From IMG/VR virus record IMGVR_UViG_2534682161_000025: a stretch of 40,833 nucleotides of DNA. The stretch is one strand, 5' to 3'. Shown piece by piece: positions 3,177 through 34,823 of the stretch (positions within the stretch are counted from its first letter, which is position 1; each line of letters opens with the position of its first letter). Origin of the DNA: a virus (Duplodnaviria > Heunggongvirae > Uroviricota > Caudoviricetes). Below the pieces are notes generated by a model. That model saw only the letters and a program-made list of their open reading frames with translations. It did not search any database and had not been told where the DNA came from. The translations under genes were made by a program, and so were the position numbers.

Positions 3177-3191
3177 TTACCCTAAAGGTGA
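3177..3191. promoter_or_regulatory. Dyad site TTACC-ctaaa-GGTGA (operator-like, site A) in the divergent holin / acetyltransferase promoter region
   Basis: Member of the recurring TTACC-N5-GGT(A/G)A family; overlaps a TGaTATCAT extended -10-like element on the plus strand. Confidence 0.4.
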
Positions 3192-4104
3192 TATCATTAA
3201 TGCATCTTACTCAAAACGATAGCGATTATGTCTTCTTTAAAATACAGAACAGATATAGGCGGGCTTAGGGCTATTGCTGTTATGGCAGTTGTCCTTTATC
3301 ACTTCGGAGTCAAAGGGTTCTCTGGTGGATTTTCAGGCGTAGATATATTCTTTGTTATATCAGGGTATCTGATGACTGGAATAATTTACACAAAGATATC
3401 TAATGGAAACTTTTCACTGTTAGGATTTTATCTTGATAGGGCAAGAAGAATTATACCTGCTTTAACTGTAGTTTCAGTTGCTGTTCTGATAGTTGGTTAC
3501 TTCATTCTTTTACCTTCTGAATATGAATACCTGGCTCAACACGTAAGAAGTAGCCTTTTATTTTTCTCAAACGTTGAGTATTACCATAGCATTGATTATT
3601 TTGATACTGCATCAAAGCAGAAATGGCTTCTTCATACATGGTCGCTTTCTGTAGAGTGGCAGTTTTACATGGTATATCCAATCATAATGATGGTGATTGC
3701 AAAGCTATTGGGCGCTAAGCATATAAGGTATGTTGTTGCCATCCTTGCAATTATATCATTTACTGCCTCAGTGTATCTTTCTTATAATAATCAGGGCGCT
3801 GCATTTTATCTTCTGTCAAGCAGAGCTTGGGAGATGCTGGCTGGCGGCCTTGCCTACCTTCTTCCTACTATACAAAATTCAAAACGCACTGCTGTATTTA
3901 GATGGATTGCCATAGCCTTTGCAGTATCGGGGATAGTCTTGCTTAACAGCTTAATGAAGTGGCCTGGGTATCTTGCCTTAATACCAGTCGTTTCTACTTT
4001 CTTTGTCATTTATCTTGGATGTAAAGATAACCTATTACTTGATAATGCATTATCTCAATGGGTTGGGAAAATTTCATACTCGGTATATCTGGTTGGATTT
4101 GCCC

Positions 4105-5010
4105 CTATATTTCCAGACATCTGTTATCACTTAACCCATTACAAGCCCGCTGCCGCAGATATTCCCGTGGCGAGCGATAACCCAGCGCACTATGCGGATG
4201 CCATTCGTTATAATGCTCGAACGCCTCTGCAAGGTTCTTTGCTGCCGTTAACCCGTCTGGTTTGGGCATGATACTGATGTAGTCACGCTTTATCGTTTTC
4301 ACGAAGCTCTCTGCTATTCCGTTACTCTCCGGACTCCGCACCGCCGTGTTCTTCGGTTCAAGTCCCAACATCCGGGCGAACTGGCGTGTTTCATTAGCCC
4401 GGTAGCATGAACCATTATCCGTCAGCCACTCCACTGGAGACGACGGAAGATCGTTGCCGAAGCGGCGTTCCACCGCTCCCAGCATGACGTCCTGTACTGT
4501 TTCACTGTTGAAGCCGCCAGTAGTCACCGCCCAGTGCAGTGCCTCACGATCACAGCAGTCCAGCGCGAACGTGACACGCAGTCTCTCTCCGTTATCACAG
4601 CAGAACTCGAACCCGTCAGAGCACCATCGCTGATTGCTTTCTTTCACGGCCACTCTGCCTGTATGTGCCCGTTTCGATGGCGGTACAGCAGGTTTTCGCT
4701 CAAGCAACAGCGCATTCTGGCGCATGATCCGGTAAACACGTTTGGCATTGATCGCAGGCATACCATCAAGTTCTGCCTGTCTGCGAAGCAGCGCCCATAC
4801 CCGACGATAACCATACGTGGGCAGCTCTCCGATAACATGGTGTATACGGAGAAGCACATCCGTATCATCAGTGTGACGACTGCGGCGGCCATCCATCCAG
4901 TCATCGGTTCGTCTGAGAATGACGTGCAACTGCGCACGCGACACCCGGAGACAACGGCTGACTAAGCTTACTCCCCATCCCCGGGCAATAAGGGCGCGTG
5001 CGCTATCCAC
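4105..5010 (-). CDS. insD: IS2 transposase OrfB (InsD-like, DDE catalytic part)
   Basis: 301-aa ORF with IS3-family OrfB features ([17 protein letters not shown]); overlaps orfA in the -1 frame as expected for programmed frameshift. Confidence 0.85.
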
Positions 5011-5333
5011 TTTTTTGCCCGTCCATATTCAACGGCTTCTTTGAGGAGTTCATTTTCCATCGTTTTCTTGCCGAGCAGGCGCTGGAGTTCTTTAATCTGC
5101 TTCATGGCGGCAGCAAGTTCAGAGGCAGGAACAACCTGTTCTCCGGCGGCGACAGCAGTAAGACTTCCTTCCTGGTATTGCTTACGCCAGAGAAATAACT
5201 GGCTGGCTGCTACACCATGTTGCCGGGCAACGAGGGAGACCGTCATCCCCGGTTCAAAGCTCTGCTGAACAATTGCGATCTTTTCCTGTGTGGTACGCCG
5301 TCTGCGTTTCTCCGGCCCTAAGACATCAATCAT
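4968..5333 (-). CDS. insC: IS2 OrfA (InsC-like, HTH DNA-binding part)
   Basis: Starts [22 protein letters not shown]; about 121 aa; ends inside the orfB overlap. Confidence 0.8.
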
Positions 5334-6431
5334 CTGTTCTCCAATGACTAGTCTAAAAACTAGTATTAAGACTATCACTTATTTAAGTGATACTGGTTGT
5401 CTGGAGATTCAGGGGGCCAGTCTACTGGTTCACTGGCCCATAGTTGTATATATGTCAATGAATAAGATGGATGATATGGTTTATACAGTATCAGGTGTTG
5501 CCTTATCAATTCTTATTGGTGCCGCATCATTTTATTTAATTGAAAACCCTTCAAGAAAGGCACTTTCAAAATTTAAAAACGGCAGGTCCTTGAATGAATT
5601 AACTTCAATCGTGCTACCTGTAGGTGGTGTAGTTGGTTTGTGCTTCGCTGTACTATTGCTATCTGGAATTCCATCAAGGTTTTCGTTTGCCACAATGACG
5701 TCCGAACAGCTAAAAGAACAAATGAACAGGTATTGGGTTGATGGAGACAAGCCTCACCCTGTACCGAAGACAGGTGACAAAAAAATAGTAATAATCGGTA
5801 ATTCTCATGGCATAGATCTGACTTATGCACTTACTGAAAATGGGATGAAGGGTGATATAACTTATATAAGAACTACAAACTTATGTTCAAACTTTGGTTA
5901 TACACCAAACGACATGCCCTATGTAGAAAAGTGCAAAAAAATATTCAATGACGTAATCTCATCTCCAGCCATAGCTGAAGCTAACATTATAATCCTTCAT
6001 GATGATTATGGCGTTGGCGATCTGTTCGGGATGCTTTACTCTATAGGCAAAATACAGGAGAGGACTAAAGGAGAAGTTATTGTATTTGGGCCTAAGATGA
6101 AGTTTACGGCACAGCCAATGGAAATAATTAAGTCTGCTTTTAAATCTGGCGTAAACACAGTTGATGGGATAAATAAATACTCTAAAAAGTATTATGACAA
6201 TAGTAGAGTTGAAATTAACAATACGATAAAAGGCTATCTTGGTAGCAACCAGCATTCGTATAAATACATAGATACGCTTGCCGAGCAGTGCGGAAAGTCA
6301 ATGAATTGTGACATCCTTTCTACTAAAGGTGATTATCTTTACTTTGATAATAGTCATTTCACTCTAGAAGGCTCAAGGGAGTTTGGGAAAAAATTAAAAA
6401 ATGACAAGCCATTTATTTTTTAATTGATGAT

Positions 6432-6448
6432 GGGGAGCATTGCTCCCC
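6432..6448. terminator. Stem-loop between convergent acetyltransferase and tailspike genes
   Basis: ggggagc-att-gctcccc, 7-bp GC-rich stem; no clear T-run, so terminator function uncertain. Confidence 0.35.
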
Positions 6449-6458
6449 ACGCATAACA

Positions 6459-33975: not shown

Positions 33976-34049
33976 ATAATAAATATTCACCCATAAGGTA
34001 ACAAAAATCAAGGATAGTTACCTATGAGGTGCATTTACCTGTTGGGTAA
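33976..34049. promoter_or_regulatory. Immunity-region operator/promoter cluster: three dyad sites plus a PR-like promoter
   Basis: Sites TCACC-cataa-GGTAA (33987), TTACC-tatga-GGTGC (34018), TTACC-tgttg-GGTAA (34035); minus-strand TTGTTA (33999..34004), 17 bp, TATTAT (33976..33981) overlapping the first site. Confidence 0.5.
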
Positions 34050-34104
34050 TATTGCTTTAAATTGAATCATCTACTGATTCATATATGAGGCGATTTTCCA
34101 GAAA

Positions 34105-34689
34105 ATGAAAAGTATCCAGGACGTCCGCAGGCAAAATCTCAACGACTTGATCGACCGTGAATTCAATGGTGTTCAGACGCGGATGGCAGAAAAACTTGGA
34201 ACTCAGGCAAATCTGGTAAACCGCTGGGCTCTTGGCAAGAAGGTTATCGGCGACCAGGTTGCGCGAAAAATTGAAGCTGCCGCCAATAAACCCCGTAACT
34301 GGCTTGATATCGATCGCTCGCTTTCTCAGGAAGGTTTTCAGCCTGTCGGCCCAAGCGACATTGGTCAGCTGGCGGCTCACAACCTGGAACGCTGGATGAG
34401 CGAAAGCCGCGACCTTTCAACACAGGGAAAACTTCACCGCGCATCCGGCGTCGCCCAGGTGACAATCAGCCGCCTGTTAAACAATGAGGTCAGCGTTTCC
34501 ATTTCCACCCTGGAGAATGTTGCATCTGCATTCGGGCGTCACGGATATGAACTACTGATTCATCCGCATGACCCTGCAACTATCAACTATGACCGCTCGC
34601 GCTACGCATTGTTACCTGAAACAGAGAAGGCAAAGATCGAAAGTTACATTGAATTTGTCATCAACCAGAACGAAAAAAACAAACAATAA
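34105..34689 (+). CDS. Candidate prophage repressor: two-HTH DNA-binding protein, no recognisable LexA-like autocleavage domain
   Basis: 194 aa; HTH-like segments near residues 25-45 and 110-135 (SGVAQVTISRLLNNE); own terminator downstream. Confidence 0.5.
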   Translation: MKSIQDVRRQNLNDLIDREFNGVQTRMAEKLGTQANLVNRWALGKKVIGDQVARKIEAAANKPRNWLDIDRSLSQEGFQPVGPSDIGQLAAHNLERWMSESRDLSTQGKLHRASGVAQVTISRLLNNEVSVSISTLENVASAFGRHGYELLIHPHDPATINYDRSRYALLPETEKAKIESYIEFVINQNEKNKQ

Positions 34690-34709
34690 AATCATATTTT
34701 TCAGTAAGT

Positions 34710-34735
34710 AAGCCGCCTTATGGCGGCTTTTTTAT
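34710..34735 (+). terminator. Intrinsic terminator after the repressor candidate
   Basis: aagccgcc-ttat-ggcggctt followed by TTTTTT. Confidence 0.65.
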
Positions 34736-34746
34736 TGCCTATTCGA

Positions 34747-34823
34747 TTACCTAACGGGTAATTTTTTTAACTCATATCTATTGACATCAAACCAGATACG
34801 CATAATTATTACCTCAACGGTAA
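34747..34823. promoter_or_regulatory. PL-like promoter with two dyad sites
   Basis: TTACC-taacg-GGTAA (34747), TTGACA (34781..34786), then AATTATTACC-tcaac-GGTAA (34809) over the -10/+1 region. Confidence 0.5.

What the first reader, a model, noticed from the sequence alone, without database searches (positions are those of the whole stretch)
3177..34823. A 15-bp dyad TTACC-N5-GGT(A/G)A recurs at 13 or more promoter-proximal sites across the prophage
Sites: 3177, 8819, 25429, 28577, 28595, 31618, 31680, 33650, 33987, 34018, 34035, 34747, 34809. Three sit between the divergent cro-like and repressor-candidate genes (an OR-like triplet overlapping a PR-like -35/-10), two flank a TTGACA promoter heading the plus-strand early operon, and single sites precede each plus-strand moron and the terminase gene. 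Lambda-type phages confine operators to OL/OR; a genome-wide set is more like the stoperator networks of some mycobacteriophages, or a shared regulator for conversion genes. The binding protein is unknown; the two-HTH protein at 34105 is the obvious candidate.
Basis: partly seen in the sequence, partly recalled or inferred. Interest (0 to 1): 0.78.

Follow-up and report, generated by a model that had tools for sequence, protein, structure and literature searches.

The report
Repressor operators of an epsilon15-like prophage
The repeated TTACC-N5-GGTAA dyad is real and marks the start of almost every transcription unit of this E. coli prophage, but it is the repressor-binding site already annotated in the related Salmonella phage epsilon15, so it is a known regulatory design, not a new one.

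Summary
Twelve sites match TTACC-N5-GGTAA with at most one mismatch (0.59 expected) and a thirteenth has two mismatches. All 13 lie in the 6-8% of the prophage that is non-coding. Fifty kb of flanking E. coli DNA has no exact copy.

The window is a Uetakevirus (epsilon15/phiV10-like) prophage at guaA. The same dyad sits at orthologous positions in epsilon15, phiV10, SPC32H, Tyrion and a Klebsiella phage. Arms are invariant in 93% of alignment columns, against 24% for spacers. Spacings are also conserved (62, 17-18 and 30-31 bp).

GenBank AY150271.2 (epsilon15) already annotates seven dispersed copies as repressor binding sites. The protein at 34105-34689 is identical to the phiV10/ZX5 repressor and matches the crystallised tetrameric SPC32H Rep over its full length. 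It has no self-cleavage domain. A LexA-controlled Ant homolog (89% identical) lies at 8910-9167.

Best reading: Rep operators at every operon start, relieved by SOS-induced Ant. This works like P1 C1's dispersed operators and is not a stoperator system. Which promoter each single site controls is unresolved.

Novelty: already known. Interest: low.

The parts
3177..3191 (.). Single operator TTACCCTAAAGGTGA in the divergent gap between the lysis cassette (2667-3071, minus) and the IS-disrupted O-antigen acyltransferase (3228-, plus)
   Evidence: Conserved in phiV10, Tyrion, epsilon15 and SPC32H. Overlaps a plus-strand TTAACG-18-TGaTATCAT promoter-like site.
8819..8833 (.). Single operator TTACCTTTCAGGTGA between the tailspike gene (6459-8714, minus) and ant (8910-9167, plus)
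   Evidence: Conserved in six phages. Orthologous to the epsilon15 protein_bind 'repressor' feature at 19895-19911.
25429..25443 (.). Single perfect operator 91 nt upstream of the gp3/portal operon (25132-25338, minus). tRNA-Arg and a Gp49-family gene lie on the plus strand beyond it.
   Evidence: Orthologous to the epsilon15 'repressor' feature at 2931-2947.
28576..28608 (.). Pair of operators 18 bp apart (28576-28590 and 28594-28608). They lie between a terminator (28628-28645) and the terS start codon (28573, minus), and overlap the terS ribosome-binding site.
   Evidence: The same pair occurs in phiV10 (87/105), epsilon15 (12/30) and Tyrion (67/85). The epsilon15 feature 12-27 is annotated 'repressor'.
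31618..31694 (-). Middle-operon promoter sandwiched by two perfect operators 62 bp apart: upstream operator 31680-31694, -35 TTGATT 31655-31660, -10 TTTAAT 31632-31637, downstream operator 31618-31632, which overlaps the RBS of gene 31267-31614
   Evidence: The 62-bp spacing is kept in all six phages.
33650..33664 (.). Single operator TTACCTTTAAGGTAC after the cro-gene terminator (33679-33698), heading the replication operon
   Evidence: Orthologous sites in phiV10 (33112) and Tyrion (35365).
33987..34049 (.). OR-like triplet: 33987-34001, 34018-34032 (two mismatches) and 34035-34049, with centres 31 and 17 bp apart. The first overlaps the cro-ward promoter. The third overlaps a TAATAT -10 facing rep.
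   Evidence: All three operators are conserved in six phages.
34747..34823 (+). PL-like promoter TTGACA(34781)-17-AATTAT sandwiched by operators 34747-34761 and 34809-34823, 62 bp apart
   Evidence: The epsilon15 orthologs at 32554-32570 and 32616-32632 are annotated 'repressor'.
34105..34689 (+). Rep, the prophage repressor (194 aa): N-terminal HTH plus a second HTH_3-like region, with no peptidase domain
   Evidence: 100% identical to phiV10 p40 and ZX5 ORF21. PDB 5d50 SPC32H Rep, E=4e-42 over the full length. Pfam. NLVNRW is invariant across the genus.
33720..33950 (-). Cro-like small regulator, possibly a second protein that binds the same operators
   Evidence: 76% identical to SPC32H_042. 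phrog_35 'transcriptional repressor', E=5.6e-13.
8873..9167 (+). LexA box CTGTATAAACATACAG (8873-8888) and the antirepressor gene ant (8910-9167)
   Evidence: LexA box. 89% identical to SPC32H Ant. The box is conserved in six phages.

Best explanation
The dyads are the operators of the prophage repressor Rep (34105-34689). The window is an epsilon15/phiV10-type (Uetakevirus) prophage whose genome is cut into short transcription units by terminators. Almost every unit starts with one, two or three operators.

Inferred binding mode: Rep binds each 15-17 bp dyad with a pair of N-terminal HTH domains, one 5-bp arm each, with arm centres 10 bp (about one helical turn) apart.

Inferred by homology: Rep is a tetramer carrying two such DNA-binding pairs. 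One tetramer could therefore hold two operators at once. These could be adjacent ones (17-18 bp apart, at OR and terS) or the two that sandwich a core promoter 62 bp apart (about six turns, at the PL-like and middle promoters).

At OR, PL, the middle promoter and the int promoter, an operator overlaps the -10/+1 region or the spacer, so binding should block initiation directly.

In the lysogen this would silence early, replication, packaging, structural, tailspike and lysis units in parallel. There is no single OL/OR gate followed by an antitermination cascade.

Rep has no self-cleavage domain. Induction would come from DNA damage: LexA leaves the box over the ant promoter (8873-8888), Ant (8910-9167) is made, and Ant strips Rep from DNA. 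The Cro-like protein probably uses the same sites.

Shown here: the sites, their placement, their conservation and the homologies. Shown elsewhere: the identical protein blocks lytic growth. Inferred: binding at each site, looping, and which promoter each single site controls.
For: - Enrichment and placement.
- Genus-wide conservation: the same dyad is at orthologous places in epsilon15, phiV10, SPC32H, Tyrion and a Klebsiella phage. Arms are invariant in 93 of 100 alignment columns, against 24% of spacer columns and 35% of flank columns (on alignments).
- Spacing: the 62-bp pair spacing is kept in 11 of 12 pairs (the other is 63), along with the 18-bp terS pair and the 17+30/31 OR triplet (same calls).
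- Prior annotation: seven dispersed copies are annotated 'protein_bind, repressor, lysogeny' in GenBank AY150271.2.
- Rep identity: identical to phiV10 p40 and ZX5 ORF21. Overexpressing ZX5 ORF21 abolished free phage and cut holin and endolysin mRNA by 99.97-99.99% (PMC9782041).
- Rep homology: full-length match to SPC32H Rep, PDB 5d50. That protein has an N-terminal DBD, a middle dimerisation domain and a C-terminal tetramerisation/Ant-binding domain, with the two domain pairs about 100 A apart (PMC9986798). It binds palindromic sites as a tetramer (PMC9638917).
- Recognition residues: the NLVNRW stretch is invariant although overall identity is 43%. This fits shared half-sites.
- Induction parts: Ant is 89% identical, there is a LexA box, and no peptidase domain.
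- Promoter overlaps.
Against: - No binding data for this Rep on any of these sites could be read. The primary epsilon15 and SPC32H papers were not available.
- The three single sites at 3177, 8819 and 25429 have no partner site within 90 bp. They do not clearly overlap a strong sigma-70 promoter on the late-gene strand. Depending on which promoter model is right, they sit near -60 or in a spacer.
- At 3177 the clearest promoter-like site faces the O-antigen acyltransferase. That gene should be expressed in lysogens, which is awkward for simple repression.
- The drop in late transcripts in the ZX5 experiment could be indirect.
Confidence: 0.85

Rival explanations
1. Stoperator-type control. Repressor bound at the dispersed sites stops elongating RNA polymerase and does not block initiation, as in Cluster A mycobacteriophages.
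For: - The terS pair lies between a terminator and the start codon, over the RBS, with no convincing promoter.
- In epsilon15, SPC32H and the Klebsiella phage a third PL operator lies after a hairpin, just before the first gene.
- Sites at 33650, 31680 and 34747 follow terminators within 12-17 nt.
Against: - The site is a symmetric dyad, whereas stoperators are asymmetric 13-mers whose orientation follows transcription and matters for function (PMC9283540).
- No site lies in any intra-operon gap.
- Most sites overlap -10/+1 or spacer elements.
- Rep is homologous to a tetramer that binds palindromes, not to a monomer with two DNA-binding domains.
Confidence: 0.12
2. The single sites (3177, 8819, 25429) belong to the plus-strand accessory units (acyltransferase, ant, tRNA-Arg/Gp49). 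Rep tunes or even activates those promoters and does not silence the late operons.
For: - A plus-strand TTAACG-18-TGaTATCAT extended -10 site overlaps 3177. The TGaTAnnAT element is kept in phiV10, Tyrion and SPC32H although the downstream genes differ.
- At 25429 the hexamer AATTAT abuts the operator in the same register as at PL. The tRNA-Arg downstream is on the plus strand.
- In phiV10 (20497), Tyrion (21393) and the Klebsiella phage (17377) an operator lies between two co-oriented accessory genes with no late operon beside it.
Against: - A conserved second element, CATATRTGGTT, always lies on the late-gene strand between the operator and the late gene.
- The epsilon15 annotators placed the features on the late-gene strand, immediately upstream of the late genes.
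- Repressing an O-antigen conversion gene in lysogens contradicts its role.
- An operator inside a spacer is not an activator position.
Confidence: 0.3
3. The dyads are bound mainly by another protein: the Cro-like product of 33720-33950 or a host factor.
For: - The Cro-like protein is 76% identical across phages that share the dyad and matches a phage repressor family.
- In lambdoid switches Cro and CI share operators (textbook knowledge).
Against: - The dyad is absent from 49.7 kb of host DNA in exact form, which argues against a host regulon.
- Sharing by Cro would add to Rep binding, not replace it.
- The epsilon15 record assigns the sites to the repressor.
Confidence: 0.08

Closest known systems
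Repressor binding sites of Salmonella phage epsilon15 (GenBank AY150271.2) and the Rep-Ant-LexA switch of Salmonella phage SPC32H (PDB 5d50/5d4z), genus Uetakevirus
   Same: - Same dyad at orthologous positions: terS, gp3, tailspike/ant, PL, middle promoter, OR, lysis and int.
- Same spacings.
- Homologous Rep, Cro-like protein and Ant.
- A LexA box over the ant promoter.
   Different: - Rep is only 42-43% identical overall, although the putative recognition stretch is invariant.
- The E. coli clade has two PL operators where epsilon15-type phages have three.
- The accessory genes differ.
- The phiV10 and E. coli records carry no operator annotation.
Bacteriophage P1 C1 repressor, with 22 operators dispersed over the genome, and its antirepressor Coi
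   Same: One repressor directly controls many scattered promoters instead of one OL/OR gate. It is inactivated by a small antirepressor protein, not by RecA-dependent cleavage (PMC8546580).
   Different: The P1 operator is an asymmetric 17-mer (ATTGCTCTAATAAATTT). I know of no homology between C1 and Rep, and did not test it. P1 is a plasmid prophage, and its late genes are reached through the activator Lpa.
Stoperators of Cluster A mycobacteriophages (L5 gp71, TipsytheTRex)
   Same: More than twenty repressor sites spread over the genome, some away from the immunity region. The repressor polypeptide has two HTH-like regions.
   Different: Stoperators are asymmetric 13-mers, orientation-dependent, located in short intergenic spaces inside operons, and bound by a monomer that uses both domains on DNA (PMC9283540). 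Here the site is a dyad, found only at operon boundaries. The second HTH-like region of the homolog is a dimerisation domain.
Lambda CI with OL/OR
   Same: Divergent repressor and cro genes with a three-operator OR between them. Operators overlap -35/-10 elements. Binding is probably cooperative, possibly with looping.
   Different: Operators occur at nine or more loci instead of two. There is no S24 peptidase domain for RecA-stimulated cleavage. Induction is through LexA-controlled Ant. No Q or N homolog was noticed.
pLS20 Rco and the p53-type tetramerisation domain (TetDloop), found in DNA-looping repressors
   Same: SPC32H Rep shares the DBD-plus-C-terminal-tetramerisation layout and the antirepressor logic (PMC9986798). 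The aromatic interface residues (F187/F190) align with Y/F in this Rep. The conserved 62-bp operator pairs fit a looping or sandwiching tetramer.
   Different: Looping has not been shown for any Uetakevirus Rep. The source paper states that the repression mechanism 'has not been extensively characterized'.

Membership tests
Uetakevirus (epsilon15/SPC32H-type) Rep-operator-Ant switch | Repressor homologous over its full length to SPC32H Rep / epsilon15 gp38 | tested here: met
   PDB 5d50 E=4e-42, residues 1-190. 42% identical to epsilon15 and SPC32H, 100% to phiV10 and ZX5.
Uetakevirus (epsilon15/SPC32H-type) Rep-operator-Ant switch | TTACC-N5-GGTAA dyads at the positions annotated as repressor binding sites in epsilon15 | tested here: met
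   The annotated epsilon15 features at 12-27, 2931-2947, 19895-19911, 32554-32570, 32616-32632 and 35906-35922 carry the dyad. They align with window sites 28594, 25429, 8819, 34747, 34809 and 31680.
Uetakevirus (epsilon15/SPC32H-type) Rep-operator-Ant switch | Small antirepressor Ant, divergent from the tailspike gene, with a LexA box over its promoter | tested here: met
   89% identical to SPC32H Ant. CTGTATAAACATACAG at 8873-8888, conserved in six phages.
Uetakevirus (epsilon15/SPC32H-type) Rep-operator-Ant switch | Rep physically binds the dyads, and Ant releases it | not testable with these tools
   Needs EMSA, footprinting or ChIP. The only indirect support is the ZX5 overexpression data (PMC9782041).
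Lambda-type CI/OL-OR immunity | Operators confined to two clusters flanking the repressor gene | tested here: not met
   Nine loci in the window and one more at int.
Lambda-type CI/OL-OR immunity | Repressor with a C-terminal S24 peptidase domain for RecA-stimulated self-cleavage | tested here: not met
   Pfam finds only HTH families.
Lambda-type CI/OL-OR immunity | Tripartite operator between divergent repressor and cro genes, overlapping their promoters | tested here: met
Cluster A mycobacteriophage stoperators | Asymmetric site whose orientation follows the direction of transcription | tested here: not met
   The site is a perfect or near-perfect dyad, matching on both strands. Definition from PMC9283540.
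Cluster A mycobacteriophage stoperators | Sites in short intergenic spaces within operons | tested here: not met
   None of the seven 30-90 nt gaps holds a site. All sites are at operon boundaries.
Cluster A mycobacteriophage stoperators | Monomeric repressor using two DNA-binding domains on one site | tested here: inconclusive
   Judged by homology only. The solved homolog is a tetramer whose second HTH-like region is a dimerisation domain. The oligomeric state of this protein was not measured.
P1 C1 dispersed-operator system | Asymmetric 17-bp operator ATTGCTCTAATAAATTT bound by C1 | tested here: not met
   Different, symmetric sequence. It works alike but is not a member.

The most novel reading that the evidence does not exclude
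The whole genus uses one operator code and a nearly identical antirepressor, although its repressors have diverged to about 42% identity. If so, Rep from an E. coli, Salmonella, Enterobacter or Klebsiella member would silence any other member, and one Ant would induce them all. In addition, the single operators, which have no nearby partner, would work by pairing over kilobases through the two DNA-binding pairs of the Rep tetramer. That would fold the silent prophage into a hub of loops. The co-occurring CATATRTGGTT element would be the site of a still unidentified late-gene activator.
Probability: 0.2. Interest if true: 0.5.

Novelty: already known. Interest (0 to 1): 0.2.

Why it matters
This immunity module is present in 541 of 5,426 complete E. 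coli genomes, and its relatives convert O-antigens in Salmonella and E. coli O157. A correct operator map therefore helps in predicting immunity, induction and lysogenic-conversion gene expression. It also gives a clean test bed for how a tetrameric, antirepressor-controlled repressor silences many promoters at once. The conserved 62-bp promoter sandwich is a directly testable looping design. It does not reveal a new kind of regulation.

Tried and rejected
- Primary papers. I tried to read Kropinski 2007 (PMC2698709, PMID 17825342), Kim & Ryu 2013 (PMC3807360) and Kim 2016 (PMC4983836). None is held. What they say about operator sequences rests on the GenBank features, secondary papers and my memory.\n- Partner sites. 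I looked for weak partner sites within 90 bp of the four single operators and found none.\n- Two-mismatch hits. The 24 extra two-mismatch hits in coding sequence are not weak operators, because the host flank shows the same density.\n- Late promoters. I tried to fit sigma-70 -35/-10 elements to the late-gene side of the single sites. No consistent fit emerged.\n- Other DNA-binding proteins. I compared the sequences by eye with the IHF and DnaA consensus for the second motif, and with the CpxR consensus for the dyad. None fits.\n- Databases. Rfam finds only the tRNA. The Cro-like protein has no PDB or Pfam match.\n- Technical. Loci fetched two per turn did not reach the Python sandbox, so epsilon15, phiV10, Tyrion and the Klebsiella phage were analysed through the DNA search and DNA alignment.

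
Full report

Yes. The stated pattern TTACC-N5-GGT(A/G)A matches exactly at ten distinct places, against 0.05 expected from dinucleotide-preserving shuffles. With one mismatch to the symmetric form TTACC-N5-GGTAA there are twelve sites against 0.59 expected: 3177, 8819, 25429, 28576, 28594, 31618, 31680, 33650, 33987, 34035, 34747 and 34809.

The thirteenth site, 34018 (TTACCTATGAGGTGC), has two mismatches.

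All thirteen sites lie in non-coding gaps that make up 5.9-8.5% of the prophage. Eight of the ten gaps of at least 117 nt carry a site, and none of the short gaps inside operons does. One caveat: the terS pair is non-coding only with the 594-nt terS start used for epsilon15, SPC32H, Tyrion and phiv142-3. The longer ORF annotated for phiV10 and by PGAP would cover both sites, and it also contains a terminator-like hairpin.

It has no exact copy and three one-mismatch copies, all inside genes. At two mismatches the host density (36 per 49.7 kb) equals the window's leftover hits (24 per 40.8 kb). Those leftovers are therefore background, and the shuffles understate real background 2.5-3 fold. The conclusion survives that correction.

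A fourteenth site, TTACCTTAAAGGTAT, lies 43 nt upstream of the integrase start codon, just outside the window.

**2. What is the element?**

The window is a prophage of the genus Uetakevirus (epsilon15-like podoviruses). It is closest to Escherichia phage phiv142-3, at 97% identity over 88% of a 10-kb query, and to phiV10. It is integrated at the 3' end of guaA, and host genes yfgH and yfgI occupy window 1-1288.

The dyad is not peculiar to this prophage. At one mismatch or fewer it occurs 14 times in phiV10, 15 in Enterobacter phage Tyrion, 18 in Salmonella phage SPC32H and 13 in Klebsiella phage BUCT711. Epsilon15 has 11 exact copies and 4 more with one mismatch, one of them inside a gene. 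Shuffles predict fewer than one such site per genome at one mismatch.

The sites are at orthologous places:
- in front of terS (a pair 18 bp apart);
- in front of gp3/portal;
- between ant and the tailspike gene;
- in front of the lysis cassette;
- in front of int;
- after the cro-like gene;
- a triplet between the cro-like gene and rep (centres 17 and 30-31 bp apart);
- two pairs exactly 62 bp apart that sandwich the PL-like promoter and a middle-operon promoter (11 of 12 pairs at 62 bp, one at 63).

In six alignments of these regions, 93 of 100 arm columns are invariant, against 24% of spacer columns and 35% of flanking columns (on). That is the footprint of a sequence-specific dimeric DNA-binding protein.

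**3. It is already annotated.**

The GenBank record of epsilon15 (AY150271.2) carries seven features of type protein_bind, bound moiety 'repressor', note 'lysogeny'. They are at 12-27, 2931-2947, 19895-19911, 32479-32494, 32554-32570, 32616-32632 and 35906-35922. Each contains the dyad.

Six of them align with window sites 28594, 25429, 8819, 34747, 34809 and 31680. The seventh, 32479-32494, is the third PL operator that the E. coli clade lacks.

The dispersed, genome-wide set, including sites in front of packaging, structural and tailspike genes, was therefore recognised by the epsilon15 annotators. From memory, Kropinski et al. 2007 describe a 17-bp inverted repeat of this form as the putative operator. 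I could not open that paper. The phiV10 record and the RefSeq E. coli annotation carry no such features. The 2022 paper on the near-identical phage ZX5 names no operator sequence.

**4. The binding protein.**

ORF 34105-34689 is 100% identical to phiV10 p40 and ZX5 ORF21, and 42% identical to epsilon15 gp38 and SPC32H Rep. It matches the SPC32H Rep chain of PDB 5d50 over residues 1-190 at E=4e-42.

For ZX5, overexpressing this identical protein abolished free phage and lowered holin and endolysin mRNA by 99.97-99.99% (PMC9782041).

Secondary sources describe SPC32H Rep as follows:
- It has an N-terminal DNA-binding domain, a middle dimerisation domain and a C-terminal tetramerisation/Ant-binding domain.
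- It binds palindromic sites as a tetramer, and the dimer binds weakly.
- The two pairs of dimerisation domains are about 100 A apart.
- Its repression mechanism is 'not extensively characterized' (PMC9638917; PMC9986798).

Pfam finds an HTH_3 match at 106-147 and a weak Cro-like match at 21-61, and no peptidase domain. By homology, though, only the N-terminal HTH contacts DNA.

Across five phages the N-terminal stretch N36-L-V-N-R-W41 is invariant while overall identity falls to 43%. This fits the shared half-site. The aromatic residues of the SPC32H tetramer interface (F187, F190) align with Y and F here.

**5. The induction circuit is present too.**

ORF 8910-9167 is 89% identical to SPC32H Ant. 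A perfect LexA box, CTGTATAAACATACAG, lies at 8873-8888 just upstream and is conserved in all six phages.

From memory of Kim & Ryu 2013: SPC32H Rep is not cleaved in the SOS response but is inactivated by Ant, whose promoter LexA covers. Citing papers agree in outline.

**6. How the sites relate to promoters.**

Three arrangements are clear.

- *OR.* The first operator (33987-34001) fills the spacer and -35 of the cro-ward promoter TTGTTA-17-TATTAT. An invariant TTGATT lies just upstream. The third operator (34035-34049) overlaps an invariant TAATAT facing rep.
- *PL-like promoter.* TTGACA-17-AATTAT (34781-34809) lies between operators at 34747 and 34809, and the second begins at the last base of the -10.
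- *Middle promoter.* It has the same plan on the minus strand: upstream operator 31680-31694, then 19 nt, TTGATT, 17 nt, TTTAAT, then the downstream operator 31618-31632. The arm of that downstream operator also supplies the GAGG ribosome-binding site, 3 nt before the start codon.

The int site overlaps a TATACT -10-like hexamer.

Several operators follow a terminator within 12-17 nt: 33650, 31680, 34747 and the terS pair. The genome is thus built of terminator-bounded units, each opened by operators.

Sixty-two bp is about six helical turns. I infer that one Rep tetramer holds both operators and sandwiches the promoter. This is inference.

**7. What remains unclear.**

The single sites at 3177, 8819 and 25429 have no partner within 90 bp and sit in divergent gaps.

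On the late-gene (minus) strand, a second conserved element, CATATRTGGTT, lies between each of these operators and the late gene. It is 29-41 nt downstream of the operator and is also present in the middle promoter's spacer. Epsilon15 has it at the four orthologous places. No consistent sigma-70 promoter can be read there.

On the other strand, 3177 is overlapped by TTAACG-18-TGaTATCAT. Its extended -10 (TGaTAnnAT) is kept in phiV10, Tyrion and SPC32H. At 25429 the hexamer AATTAT abuts the operator as at PL, with tRNA-Arg and a Gp49-family gene downstream on that strand.

It is not better supported than control of the late operons, and both may be true. At 8819 the plus-strand gene is ant, not a moron.

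**8. Comparison with known systems.**

- *Same system.* It is the epsilon15/SPC32H Rep-operator-Ant switch. All sequence-level defining features tested are met.
- *P1 C1.* It works like P1 C1, which binds 22 operators dispersed over the P1 genome and is inactivated by the antirepressor Coi (PMC8546580). The P1 operator is asymmetric, and I know of no homology between C1 and Rep (not tested).
- *Stoperators.* It is not a stoperator system. Stoperators are asymmetric, orientation-dependent, located inside operons and bound by a monomer (PMC9283540). Here the site is a dyad found only at operon boundaries. A roadblock role is conceivable only for the terS pair.
- *Lambda.* It differs in the number of operator loci and in lacking a self-cleaving repressor.
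- *phiC31.* From memory, Streptomyces phage phiC31 also has about 18 conserved inverted repeats bound by its repressor across the genome. I did not check this.

**9. Verdict.**

Interest is low.

Three questions stay open: which promoters the single sites control, whether the 62-bp pairs are looped, and what the second motif does.

Noticed in passing
window 3134-3144, 8779-8789, 25377-25387, 31638-31648 (all minus strand); L002 (epsilon15) 2988, 19940, 24751, 35953: A second conserved element, CATATRTGGTT (core AACCAyATrTGG, a perfect palindrome CCATATATGG at the tailspike site). It lies 29-41 nt downstream of the operators that head the lysis, tailspike, portal and middle operons, always on the late-gene strand. 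There are 7 hits against 1.3 expected. It is invariant in six-phage alignments and no known factor site fits. It may be a late-promoter or activator site.
   Followed up: partly
window 4105-5378, within 3228-6423: An IS3-family (IS2-like) element, with orfA at 4968-5378 and orfB at 4105-5010 (both minus strand), splits the O-antigen acyltransferase into an AT3 part (3228-4271) and an SGNH part (5290-6423). The conversion gene of this prophage is therefore probably dead. In strain MFDS1019527 the same prophage instead carries IS2 in a structural gene.
   Followed up: partly
window 3168-3197 (+): An extended -10 promoter-like site, TTAACG-18-TGaTATCAT, faces the acyltransferase gene, and operator 3177 fills its spacer. 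The TG comes from the variant GGTGA arm. The TGaTAnnAT element is kept in phiV10, Tyrion and SPC32H. This may explain why this operator's arm deviates from GGTAA.
   Followed up: partly
window 25766-25842 (+): A tRNA-Arg(TCT) gene on the strand opposite the late genes, followed by a Gp49/Sf6 gene 66 family gene (26046-26417). The phiv142-3 record places this tRNA on the other strand.
   Followed up: no
window 1-1288 and right end; L007 49749-49912: The left 1.3 kb is host DNA (yfgH, yfgI), and the window stops at the integrase start codon. The attachment core ATTGAGTGGGAATGATT at the end of guaA and a 14th operator lie just outside. The immunity region occurs in 541 of 5,426 complete E. coli genomes.
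   Followed up: partly
window 27980-28654: The terS start codon is annotated inconsistently among relatives (675 nt in phiV10 and PGAP, 594-597 nt in epsilon15, SPC32H, Tyrion and phiv142-3). The longer version contains a terminator-like hairpin (28628-28645) and both operators, so the shorter one is more plausible.
   Followed up: partly
L002 (epsilon15) 32479-32494; L004 33528; L006 about 7260: Epsilon15-type phages have a third PL-side operator after a hairpin, directly in front of the first early-left gene. The E. coli and Enterobacter clade lacks it.
   Followed up: no
whole window and L007: Dinucleotide shuffles understate how often this motif occurs in real E. coli DNA by about 2.5-3 fold (37 against 14 at two mismatches in L007). 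Shuffle-based expectations for this kind of pattern should be read with that margin.
   Followed up: yes
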